64,000 nucleotides of DNA from Escherichia coli (GCF_003334385.1 NZ_QOWN01000026.1), one strand, 5' to 3'. Shown: positions 32,959-35,211, counted from the first letter of the stretch. Numbers and translations are program-made. Notes: a model not told the origin generated them from the letters alone.

Positions 32959-35211
32959 ATGTTTTCTATAAAACCAGGACCCAGAAATTTACCTATCGAC
33001 AACCCCACATTGTTATCATGGAACATTACTGACGGGGATCTAAATTCCAAATTAAATACATTAGAATATCTAAACTGTATAACAAATATTATTAATTCTT
33101 GTGGAGTTTACCCTCAAGGATTAAAAGACAGAGAAATTATATCAACTTTTCACGCAGAAAAAGTTATTAATGATCTGTTAAAAAACGATTATAAAATTTC
33201 CCTTTCTCCAGATACAACTTACCGAGAGTTGAATAAAGCAGCACAGCGTAGCATTACAGCGCCAGACAGGATAGGAGAAAGAAAAACATAGGTTTATCAA
33301 CGAGATACAATGATTGAAAGAGGTGATAACAGCGGTGTTTATCAGTATGGTCGTGCTGAACATTTCACCCACATTATATCTGACAAACCTTCCCCAAAAG
33401 ATAAATATGTTGCATATGCTATTAACATTCCTGACTATGAGCTGGCAGCCGATGTATATAATATTAACGTGACGTCACCTTCCGGACAGCAAGAAACATT
33501 TAAAATATTAATCAATCTAGAACATCTACGGCAAACACTTGAGCGTAAATCTCTTACTGCTGTTCAGAAATCACAATGTGAAATCATCACCCCCAAAAAA
33601 CCTGGCGAAGCGATTCTTCATGCTTTTAATGCCACCTACCAGCAGATCAGAGAAAATATGTCTGAATTTGCACGTTGCCATTATGGGTATATACAAATCC
33701 CTCCAGTGACAACTTTCCGCGCCGACGGACCAGAAACTCCCGAAGAAGAAAAGGGTTACTGGTTTCATGCTTATCAACCCGAAGATCTTTGTACCATCCA
33801 TAATCCAATGGGAGATTTGCAGGATTTTATTGCATTGGTTAAAGATGCTAAAAAATTTGGTATCGATATCATTCCTGATTATACCTTTAACTTTATGGGA
33901 ATTGGGGGTAGTGGTAAAAATGACCTGGATTATCCCTCTGCTGATATACGAGCGAAGATCAGTAAAGATATAGAAGGTGGTATCCCTGGCTATTAGCAAG
34001 GTCAGGTTTTGATTCCATTCATTAAAGATCCAGTAACAAAAGAACGTAAACAAATCCATCCAGAAGATATACATCTCACTGCAAAAGACTTCGAAGCAAG
34101 TAAAGATAACATCTCTAAGGATGAATGGGAAAACCTCCATGCATTAAAAGAAAAGCGTTTAAATGGAATGCCTAAAACAACACCCAAAAGTGACCAGGTT
34201 ATTATGTTGCAAAATCAATACGTTCGTGAAATGCGAAAATATGGCGTACGAGGTTTACGTTATGATGCGGCAAAACACTCAAAACATGAACAAATAGAAA
34301 GATCAATAACCCCACCGCTTAAAAATTATAATGAGCGGTTACACAATACTAACTTATTTAACCCAAAATATCATAAAAAAGCCGTTATGAATTACATGGA
34401 ATATCTGGTAACTTGTCAGTTGGATGAACAACAAATGTCATCACTGCTTTATGAAAGAGATGATTTAAGCGCCATTGATTTTTCATTGCTCATGAAAACG
34501 ATAAAAGCCTTTTCATTTGGTGGAGATCTTCAAACCCTTGCATCAAAACCGGGTTCCACAATCTCAAGTATCCCATCAGAAAGACGGATATTGATTAACA
34601 TTAACCACGATTTTCCTAACAATGGTAATTTTTTCAATGACTTTCTATTTAACCATCAACAAGATGAACAATTAGCAATGGCATATATAGCCGCTCTGCC
34701 GTTCAGCAGGCCTTTAGTTTACTGGGATGGCCAAGTATTAAAATCAACGACTGAAATTAAAAATTATGATGGGTCCACGCGTGTCGGCGGTGAGGCGTAG
34801 CTTAATAAAGGTTGCTCTACCTATCAGCAGCTCTACAATGAATTCCACGCATTATATATAGATAAAGCAGGAATATGGAGCGCATTTGAGGGTGTATCTG
34901 CAACTAAAAACGTTCTGGCCTTTAGTCGTGGGGATTCTGTGAACATTAATCACTCTCCTCATGATGGACTAGTTATAATAAATAAAGGAAACGAAGAAGT
35001 TGAAGGTACCTGGCCTAACAAATTGCAACCTGGAATATACAAAAACATGGGGAGTAATAGCGTTAACATTATTATTAATAATACCCGAAAAATTATCCCC
35101 CCTGGTAAAGTATTTACGCTTAGAGGCGGAACTCTAAATATCAATATTCCTGGGCGTAGCGCTCTTCTTTTAGGGAAAACAGGAGAACCGCCGAACTATC
35201 TCTATTTATAA
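32959..35211 (+). pseudogene. ygaQ: Alpha-amylase-like (GH13-type) gene interrupted by three in-frame TAG codons
   Basis: Four ORFs (32959-33291, 33310-33996, 34009-34800, 34939-35211) share one frame, separated only by TAG at 33289, 33994 and 34798; final stop is TAA. Translation contains amylase-like segments (FGIDIIPDYTFNFMG). Confidence 0.75.

What the first reader, a model, noticed from the sequence alone, without database searches (positions are those of the whole stretch)
32959..35211. ygaQ carries three in-frame stops, all TAG, so every pseudogene-internal stop in this window is amber
A roughly 750-codon alpha-amylase-like reading frame is broken only by TAG at 33289, 33994 and 34798, with no frameshifts, and ends at a TAA. 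With the ypjA TAG that makes four out of four internal stops amber. It may simply reflect frequent CAG-to-TAG and TGG-to-TAG transitions, but it is also the pattern expected if the lineage once carried, or still carries, an amber suppressor that relaxed selection against TAG.
Basis: partly seen in the sequence, partly recalled or inferred. Interest (0 to 1): 0.45.

Follow-up and report, generated by a model that had tools for sequence, protein, structure and literature searches.

The report
Amber-only stops in decaying E. coli genes
The three TAG stops in the E. coli ygaQ pseudogene are real. Each is an ordinary G-to-A change of a tryptophan codon that arose at a different time in wild strains with no amber suppressor, so the all-amber pattern is best explained by mutation bias plus small-number luck.

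Summary
ygaQ (32959-35211, +) has exactly three in-frame stops, all TAG, no frameshift, and a TAA terminator. ypjA has one internal TAG.

Intact alleles in other E. coli show the ancestral codons: TGG at all three ygaQ sites and CAG in ypjA and ypjCB. All five stops are therefore G:C>A:T transitions, and all are G>A on the window's + strand. None lies in a Dcm site.

The stops have very different ages. Exact 61-mers carrying each TAG occur in 2383, 1236, 1073, 893 and 1 of 5426 complete genomes.

CUA-anticodon alleles were counted in the same collection:
- glnV/X: 155 genomes; all 40 listed are K-12 laboratory strains.
- serU: one K-12 strain.
- tyrT/V/U, leuX, trpT: none.

SCU-104, the only complete genome with all five ambers, has wild-type glnX and glnV.

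Elsewhere the same genes are disabled by an opal stop, frameshifts, deletions and IS1. Simple mutational nulls give 5/5 TAG a probability of 0.001-0.025, which is low but was computed after the pattern was seen. Three further nonsense events were TAG, TAG and TGA.

Verdict: this is a known pseudogene. The suppressor idea is not supported.

The parts
32959..35211 (+). ygaQ pseudogene: a 750-codon GH13-like alpha-amylase-family frame with three in-frame TAG codons, no frameshift and a TAA terminator at 35209-35211.
   Evidence: It differs at 2 nt from MG1655 ygaQ (b4462), which is annotated as a pseudogene. Intact 750-aa alleles exist in other E. coli. Pfam matches are Alpha-amylase_C at 3.9e-6 and Alpha-amylase at 2.5e-4.
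33289..33291 (+). Amber codon 111 (TGG>TAG, G>A at 33290). It is the youngest of the three ygaQ stops.
   Evidence: Ten alleles, seven of them intact, have TGG. The exact 61-mer occurs in 893 genomes. Trp is kept in the E. albertii homologue.
33994..33996 (+). Amber codon 346 (TGG>TAG, G>A at 33995). It is intermediate in age.
   Evidence: The exact 61-mer occurs in 1073 genomes. Trp is kept in E. albertii.
34798..34800 (+). Amber codon 614 (TGG>TAG, G>A at 34799). It is the oldest stop and removes the C-terminal beta domain.
   Evidence: The exact 61-mer occurs in 2383 genomes. Trp is invariant in the 60%- and 34%-identity homologues.
24708..29288 (-). ypjA (adhesin-like autotransporter) pseudogene with one internal amber at codon 232 (window 28595-28593). 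The change is CAG>TAG, which is G>A on the + strand.
   Evidence: The gene is intact in MG1655. The exact 61-mer with TAG occurs in only 1 of 5426 genomes, SCU-104.
30200..31573 (-). ypjCB pseudogene (ypjC plus ypjB in K-12) with one internal amber at codon 161 (window 31093-31091). The change is CAG>TAG, which is G>A on the + strand.
   Evidence: The exact 61-mer occurs in 1236 genomes. Intact alleles are present in C325, UTAK-1, LD67-1 and F5446.
32324..32399 (-). ileY, tRNA-Ile(CAU), which ARAGORN calls tRNA-Met. It is the only tRNA in the window and it is not a suppressor.

Best explanation
ygaQ, ypjCB and ypjA form a small AT-rich, horizontally acquired block beside ileY and ssrA that is decaying in this E. 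coli lineage. Each internal stop is a separate spontaneous G:C>A:T transition, the commonest base substitution in E. coli. Each hit one of the few codons that a single transition turns into a stop: TGG three times and CAG twice. All five changes are G>A on the strand that templates leading-strand synthesis here, which is the direction reported to be favoured for this transition. The changes arose one after another over a long period in wild strains without suppressors and spread by descent and recombination. That all five became TAG rather than TGA or TAA is a coincidence helped by the mutation spectrum, not a sign of altered decoding. Shown here: the ancestral codons, the mutation class, the different ages, the absence of suppressor alleles, and other routes of inactivation in other lineages. 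Inferred: that no further TAG-favouring force is needed.
For: Ancestral codons are TGG x3, CAG and CAG, taken from intact alleles. W614 is invariant, and W111 and W346 are kept in E. albertii. Carrier sets are nested and counts descend: 2383 > 1236 > 1073 > 893 > 1. The one apparent exception, BE2-5 with TAG111 but not TAG346 or TAG614, is a recombinant whose 5' ~700 nt are K-12-like. On the window lineage, 19 of 32 polarised substitutions in ygaQ are G:C>A:T. In E. coli mutation-accumulation lines this class makes up 45.6% of substitutions and is commoner when G templates the leading strand (PMC5289635). The window's + strand has negative GC skew, as expected for a leading-strand template. 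Suppressor alleles are absent from natural genomes, from MG1655 and from SCU-104 glnX/V. TAG is used as an ordinary terminator in the window: 3 of 44 intact CDS. Other lineages disable the same genes by other routes: TGT>TGA; +1 and -1 frameshifts; IS1 insertion and deletions. The O157 ygaQ amber (Q413) lies in a CCAGG Dcm site, the classic amber hotspot. Three nonsense changes among about 28 substitutions roughly match the 5-7% of single substitutions (5% of all changes, 6.7% of G:C>A:T) that create stops in this gene.
Against: The probability of 5/5 TAG is only 0.001-0.025 under the nulls tried. Including the O157 event gives 6/6 at 0.0002-0.004. All three ygaQ events hit the middle G of TGG and none hit the last G (1/8 by itself), and none hit the 20 CAA or 6 CGA codons. 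The out-of-sample set holds only three events. The substitution differences between pseudogene alleles do not look fully neutral: dN/dS is 0.2-0.45. I attribute this to recombination with intact alleles, but I did not prove it.
Confidence: 0.85

Rival explanations
1. The lineage carries, or once carried, an amber-suppressor tRNA. This weakened selection against TAG, so amber stops accumulated preferentially in genes that were still useful.
For: All five internal stops in the window are TAG. supE-type alleles do exist in E. coli genomes: 155 of 5424.
Against: All 40 listed supE-type genomes are K-12 laboratory strains, and the single serU(CUA) genome is DSM 498, a K-12 strain. There are no tyr, leuX or trpT CUA alleles in 5426 genomes. 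The amber alleles sit in 893-2383 natural genomes, and the ypjA amber is private to one clone, so no single suppressor episode covers all five. MG1655 and SCU-104 have wild-type anticodons. Stops arising after W614am would be close to neutral whatever their type. TAG terminates 3 of 44 normal genes in the window.
Confidence: 0.03
2. A real TAG-favouring bias operates beyond the simple spectrum. One possibility is a context- or strand-specific G>A process that prefers the T-G-G middle G and C-A-G. Another is selection for tight knock-outs, because TGG>TGA is leaky through tRNA-Trp whereas TAG is not.
For: Six of seven independent nonsense events in these three genes are TAG. Five of five window events are G>A on one strand. 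Simple nulls give 0.001-0.025. A strand bias for G:C>A:T has been reported (PMC5289635).
Against: Once strand bias is assumed, the residual probability is 0.025, and it rests mostly on three 50:50 outcomes at TGG. One of the six TAGs has a separate known cause, a Dcm site. The first out-of-sample non-CAG, non-TGG event was TGA. The local G>A versus C>T counts, 12 versus 7, are not significantly skewed.
Confidence: 0.1
3. ygaQ is not dead. Either the fragments are functional products (for example the 110-aa N-terminal stub reported as a nuclease) or low-level readthrough yields useful full-length enzyme, so the frame is kept open.
For: A published study reports mitomycin C resistance and ssDNA-flap nuclease activity for the over-expressed 110-aa YgaQ fragment (PMC4725251). 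The K-12-type allele has no frameshift, and dN/dS between pseudogene alleles is 0.2-0.45 rather than about 1.
Against: The 110-aa product exists only because of the youngest stop (W111am), and a ygaQ deletion had no phenotype in repair-proficient cells. Other carriers of W614am or W111am have added frameshifts, an IS1 insertion and deletions. The sub-neutral dN/dS is expected from the visible recombination mosaics. The gene is an H-NS-silenced locus with spurious internal promoters (PMC7229825).
Confidence: 0.04

Closest known systems
ygaQ (b4462) pseudogene of E. coli K-12, formerly split as ygaQ, ygaR and further ORFs (names recalled from my own knowledge, not checked)
   Same: The sequence differs at 2 of 2253 nt. 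It has the same three TAG positions and the same neighbours: ileY upstream and glaH/csiD downstream.
   Different: The window is not K-12. It lacks the CP4-57 prophage between ssrA and ypjA, and it carries a private amber in ypjA, which is intact in MG1655.
GH13 alpha-amylase family (Pfam PF00128 and PF02806)
   Same: The intact allele matches both the catalytic and the C-terminal domain models. Intact alleles are under purifying selection, with dN/dS of 0.08-0.22.
   Different: The Pfam matches are weak (2.5e-4 and 3.9e-6). There is a ~260-aa N-terminal extension with no domain match. Catalytic residues and substrate were not examined.
Amber-suppressor tRNAs supE (glnV), supF (tyrT), supD (serU), supP (leuX) and su7 (trpT)
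   Same: supE-type and supD-type alleles are present in some sequenced E. coli genomes.
   Different: The listed carriers are all K-12 laboratory strains (40 of 155 supE-type carriers were listed). These alleles are absent from MG1655 and SCU-104 and, as far as listed, from the natural genomes that carry the ambers.
5-methylcytosine (Dcm, CCWGG) amber hotspots, as in lacI (own knowledge: Coulondre and Miller, 1978)
   Same: The independent O157 ygaQ amber is CCAGG>CTAGG, exactly this type of hotspot.
   Different: None of the five window ambers lies in CCWGG.
rpoS(Am) with supE44 in K-12 stocks (own knowledge; not checked here)
   Same: It is an example of an amber allele and a suppressor coexisting in the K-12 laboratory pedigree.
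   Different: That is a laboratory-era event. The ygaQ and ypjCB ambers are shared with hundreds to thousands of wild isolates and so predate it.

Membership tests
Nonsense-disrupted pseudogene of a GH13-like alpha-amylase gene | Full-length intact orthologues exist, against which the frame is interrupted. | tested here: met
   Seven intact 750-codon alleles at 95.7-100% identity; the window allele has stops at codons 111, 346 and 614.
Nonsense-disrupted pseudogene of a GH13-like alpha-amylase gene | Sequence membership of the alpha-amylase family. | tested here: met
   PF02806 at 3.9e-6 and PF00128 at 2.5e-4 on the intact allele. These are weak but concordant matches.
Nonsense-disrupted pseudogene of a GH13-like alpha-amylase gene | Relaxed selection after disruption (dN/dS near 1, further lesions accumulating). 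| tested here: inconclusive
   Further stops, frameshifts, an IS1 insertion and deletions accumulate in carriers of the first stop. However, dN/dS is 0.2-0.45 on small counts and is confounded by recombination.
Gene kept functional by an amber-suppressor tRNA | A tRNA with anticodon CUA in the same genome. | tested here: not met
   None in the window. Wild-type anticodons in MG1655 and in SCU-104 glnX/V. No natural-isolate CUA alleles at tyr, ser, leu or trp genes among 5426 genomes. Whole-genome, prophage and plasmid tRNAs of the source strain were not scanned.
Gene kept functional by an amber-suppressor tRNA | The ambers date to one period, when the suppressor was present. | tested here: not met
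   Carrier counts run from 2383 down to 1 genome, with nested distribution.
Programmed stop-codon recoding or readthrough | The in-frame stop is conserved among orthologues. | tested here: not met
   Orthologues have TGG or CAG at every site.
Dcm (CCWGG) deamination hotspot | The mutated C is the inner C of CCWGG. | tested here: not met
   The window contexts are CATGG, ATTGG, CGTGG, TCAGT and ACAGG. Only the O157 Q413am site is CCAGG.

The most novel reading that the evidence does not exclude
Premature stops that reach appreciable frequency in E. coli accessory genes are enriched for TAG beyond what codon content and the known mutation spectrum predict. The cause could be a strand- and context-specific G>A process at T-G-G and C-A-G, or selection favouring tight amber knock-outs over leaky TGA. 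This locus, with 6 of 7 events amber, would be a first glimpse of that.
Probability: 0.07. Interest if true: 0.4.

Novelty: already known. Interest (0 to 1): 0.12.

Why it matters
It matters little beyond housekeeping. ygaQ is an annotated pseudogene, and its three stops are ordinary transitions. The useful outcomes are as follows.
- A clean negative for the amber-suppressor idea, tested at population scale.
- A dated order of the lesions: W614am, then W346am, then W111am.
- A caution that the published 110-aa "YgaQ" protein is the stub left by the youngest of three nonsense mutations in a 750-aa amylase-like gene.

If the small TAG excess turned out to be general, it would bear on how bacterial genes are lost. 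The present data do not require that.

Tried and rejected
- **Dcm hotspot as the cause.** Rejected for all five window ambers because the contexts are not CCWGG. It does hold for the separate O157 amber.
- **Independent recurrence of TAG111 in strain BE2-5.** Rejected. The allele is a recombinant whose first ~700 nt are K-12-like.
- **Identifying the exact source genome for a full tRNA scan.** No perfect match exists in the collection. The best, SCU-104, has 15 mismatches in 49.8 kb. I used SCU-104 and MG1655 as proxies and found the SCU-104 glnX/V operon by synteny.
- **Harvesting more independent nonsense alleles from protein clusters**. Most truncated products proved to be contig ends, IS1 insertions, deletions or frameshifts. 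Only one new nonsense event emerged, ypjCB TGT>TGA.
- **Reading the Lee et al. 2012 mutation-accumulation paper for a spectrum.** It is not held, so I used PMC5289635 instead.
- **Strand asymmetry in the background substitutions of ygaQ.** G>A 12 versus C>T 7 is not significant.
- **Literature search for natural amber suppressors.** It returned nothing useful.

Full report
**Observation**

Translating window 32959-35211 on the + strand gives one frame of 750 codons plus a terminator. It is interrupted only at codons 111, 346 and 614. The interrupting codons are TAG at 33289, 33994 and 34798, and the terminator is TAA at 35209. The region is 37% G+C against 50% for the window.

The window is an E. 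coli chromosome segment running from aroF past ssrA to emrA. Its ygaQ differs from MG1655 ygaQ (b4462, annotated as a pseudogene) at 2 of 2253 nt. The window is not K-12, however. It has no CP4-57 prophage between ssrA and ypjA. Its closest complete genome is the human commensal SCU-104, with 15 mismatches in 49.8 kb.

**The count is five, not four**

RefSeq annotation of SCU-104 marks three neighbouring pseudogenes with 'internal stop': ypjA, ypjCB and the amylase-like gene. In window coordinates:
- ypjA (24708-29288, minus strand) has one internal stop, TAG, at codon 232 (28595-28593).
- ypjCB (30200-31573, minus strand) has one internal stop, at codon 161 (31093-31091), and it is also TAG.

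All five internal stops in the window are amber.

**Ancestral codons**

I compared 20 ygaQ alleles from complete genomes. Seven are intact: MRSN346355, 118UI, C325, UTAK-1, LD67-1, F5446 and 21AH057.
- All intact alleles have TGG at codons 111, 346 and 614.
- An E. albertii homologue at 60% identity keeps Trp at all three sites. A 34%-identity homologue keeps W614.
- ypjA codon 232 is CAG in MG1655 and C325. ypjCB codon 161 is CAG in C325 and UTAK-1.

All five stops are therefore single G:C>A:T transitions. Because ygaQ lies on the + strand and the other two genes on the minus strand, all five are G>A on the window's + strand. None is in a Dcm CCWGG site.

**Ages**

Carrier sets among the sampled alleles are nested: W614am contains W346am, which contains W111am. 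The one exception, BE2-5, has TAG111 only. It is a recombinant whose 5' ~700 nt match the K-12 type and whose remainder does not.

Exact 61-mers centred on each mutated base were counted in 5426 complete genomes. These are lower bounds.

| Stop | Genomes with exact 61-mer |
|---|---|
| ygaQ W614am | 2383 |
| ypjCB Q161am | 1236 |
| ygaQ W346am | 1073 |
| ygaQ W111am | 893 |
| ypjA Q232am | 1 (SCU-104) |

The ambers thus arose at very different times. The oldest predates the split of large natural clades, and the youngest is private to one clone.

**Suppressor test**

The window holds only tmRNA and ileY. In MG1655, which carries four of the five ambers, glnX, glnV, tyrT, tyrV, serU and leuX all have wild-type anticodons.

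I then searched all 5426 genomes with each tRNA rewritten to anticodon CUA.

| tRNA gene(s) | Genomes with exact CUA allele | Note |
|---|---|---|
| glnV/X (supE type) | 155 | All 40 listed are K-12 laboratory strains (C600, DH5alpha, DH1, J53, NCM3722 and others) |
| tyrT/V/U | 0 | |
| serU | 1 | DSM 498, a K-12 strain |
| leuX | 0 full-length | The 7 hits at >=99% identity correspond to the 7 records with only partial matches |
| trpT | 0 | |

I located the glnX-glnV operon of SCU-104 by synteny, and both genes read CTG. TAG also serves as the normal terminator of 3 of 44 intact genes in the window, against 32 TAA and 9 TGA.

One gap remains. Accessory tRNAs elsewhere in the unidentified source genome could not be scanned.

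**Is amber-only more than chance?**

I enumerated every single-base route to a stop in the three reconstructed ancestral genes.

| Substitution model | P(TAG) ygaQ / ypjA / ypjCB | P(5 of 5 TAG) |
|---|---|---|
| Uniform substitutions | 0.23 / 0.37 / 0.24 | 0.0011 |
| MA-like spectrum | 0.28 / 0.44 / 0.27 | 0.0026 |
| Spectrum estimated from ygaQ itself | 0.34 / 0.50 / 0.32 | 0.0062 |
| G:C>A:T only | 0.375 / 0.55 / 0.39 | 0.011 |
| G>A on the + strand only | 0.50 / 0.57 / 0.36 | 0.025 |

The strand-specific model has independent support:
- G:C>A:T changes make up 45.6% of substitutions in E. coli mutation-accumulation lines.
- They are more frequent when G templates the leading strand (PMC5289635).
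- The window's + strand has the negative GC skew of a leading-strand template.
- On the window lineage, 19 of 32 polarised ygaQ substitutions are G:C>A:T.

The residual improbability is a few per cent at most, and it was computed on a pattern chosen after the fact.

**Out-of-sample events**

- ypjCB Q161am, TAG.
- ygaQ Q413am in O157:H7. This is CAG>TAG inside CCAGG, a Dcm site and therefore a classic amber hotspot.
- ypjCB C41, TGT>TGA, in two assembled read sets.

Two of three being TAG is unremarkable.

The same genes are also disabled in other ways:
- a +1 insertion in ygaQ in O104:H4 and a canine isolate;
- a -1 deletion, widespread and seen in more than 1000 contigs;
- a -1 deletion in an A-run of ypjCB;
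- an IS1 insertion and large deletions in ygaQ;
- truncations of ypjA.

About 1400-2000 genomes lack part or all of ygaQ. Decay of this block is therefore general and uses every route.

**Selection**

Intact ygaQ alleles show dN/dS of 0.08-0.22, so the gene is functional where it is intact. Comparisons involving pseudogene alleles give 0.2-0.45 on 8-31 differences. This is higher than among intact alleles, but not 1. Given the obvious recombination mosaics, I read it as import of variation from intact alleles rather than as evidence that the interrupted gene is expressed. I did not prove this.

Three nonsense changes among about 28 substitutions are in line with the 5-7% of single substitutions (5% of all changes, 6.7% of G:C>A:T) that create stops in this gene.

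**Literature**

ygaQ is a horizontally acquired, H-NS-silenced gene with spurious internal promoters (PMC7229825). One paper characterises the 110-aa 'YgaQ' of W3110 as a nuclease that confers mitomycin C resistance when over-expressed, and notes homology to alpha-amylases (PMC4725251). That 110-aa product is the stub ending at the youngest amber.

**Verdict**

The explanation is ordinary: a known pseudogene and two neighbours are being lost through the commonest transition, at the only codons where that transition makes a stop, on the favoured strand, at different times, in strains without suppressors. The amber-suppressor reading is not supported. A genuine extra bias towards TAG cannot be excluded with seven events, but nothing here demands it.

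Noticed in passing
Its stop is also amber (CAG>TAG), is shared with MG1655, and occurs in at least 1236 genomes.
   Followed up: yes
window 24547-24708: ssrA is followed after about 160 nt by the 3' end of ypjA. The 22-kb CP4-57 prophage that sits here in K-12 is absent, so the window is a non-K-12 strain with K-12-like alleles. The nearest complete genome is SCU-104.
   Followed up: partly
L004 (O157:H7 Z1814), ygaQ codon 413: O157:H7 inactivated ygaQ independently by CAG>TAG inside CCAGG, a Dcm methylation site. This is the textbook 5-methylcytosine amber hotspot.
   Followed up: yes
window 32959-33291: The 110-aa 'YgaQ' studied as a nuclease and mitomycin C resistance factor (PMC4725251) is the N-terminal stub created by the youngest of three nonsense mutations in a 750-aa amylase-like gene. 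Its exact 61-mer was found in 893 of 5426 genomes.
   Followed up: partly
L006 (BE2-5) and the ygaQ alignment: ygaQ alleles are clear recombination mosaics. Blocks of derived sites are shared in incompatible combinations among strains, and a 496-aa product spanning codons 118-613 (862 cluster members) implies alleles with stops at 111 and 614 but not at 346.
   Followed up: partly
(E. coli genome collection): RefSeq/PGAP shows no annotated feature under supE-type glnV(CUA) or supD-type serU(CUA) genes ('none' under the match). Suppressor tRNAs therefore seem to go unannotated in 155 genomes plus one. DSM 498 carries a serU CUA allele.
   Followed up: no
window 32324-32399 (minus strand): ARAGORN calls ileY tRNA-Met (anticodon CAT). 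It is the lysidine-modified tRNA-Ile2 and marks the insertion point of the AT-rich ypjA-ypjCB-ygaQ block.
   Followed up: no
L025 (CP121673.1), ypjA: One genome shows six single-base indels among eight indels in ypjA. This could be real decay or homopolymer errors from long-read assembly. I excluded it from the tally of events.
   Followed up: no
window 29696-29863 (minus strand): A 168-nt recombinase (pinH-like) remnant lies between ypjA and ypjCB, consistent with an old integrative element.
   Followed up: no
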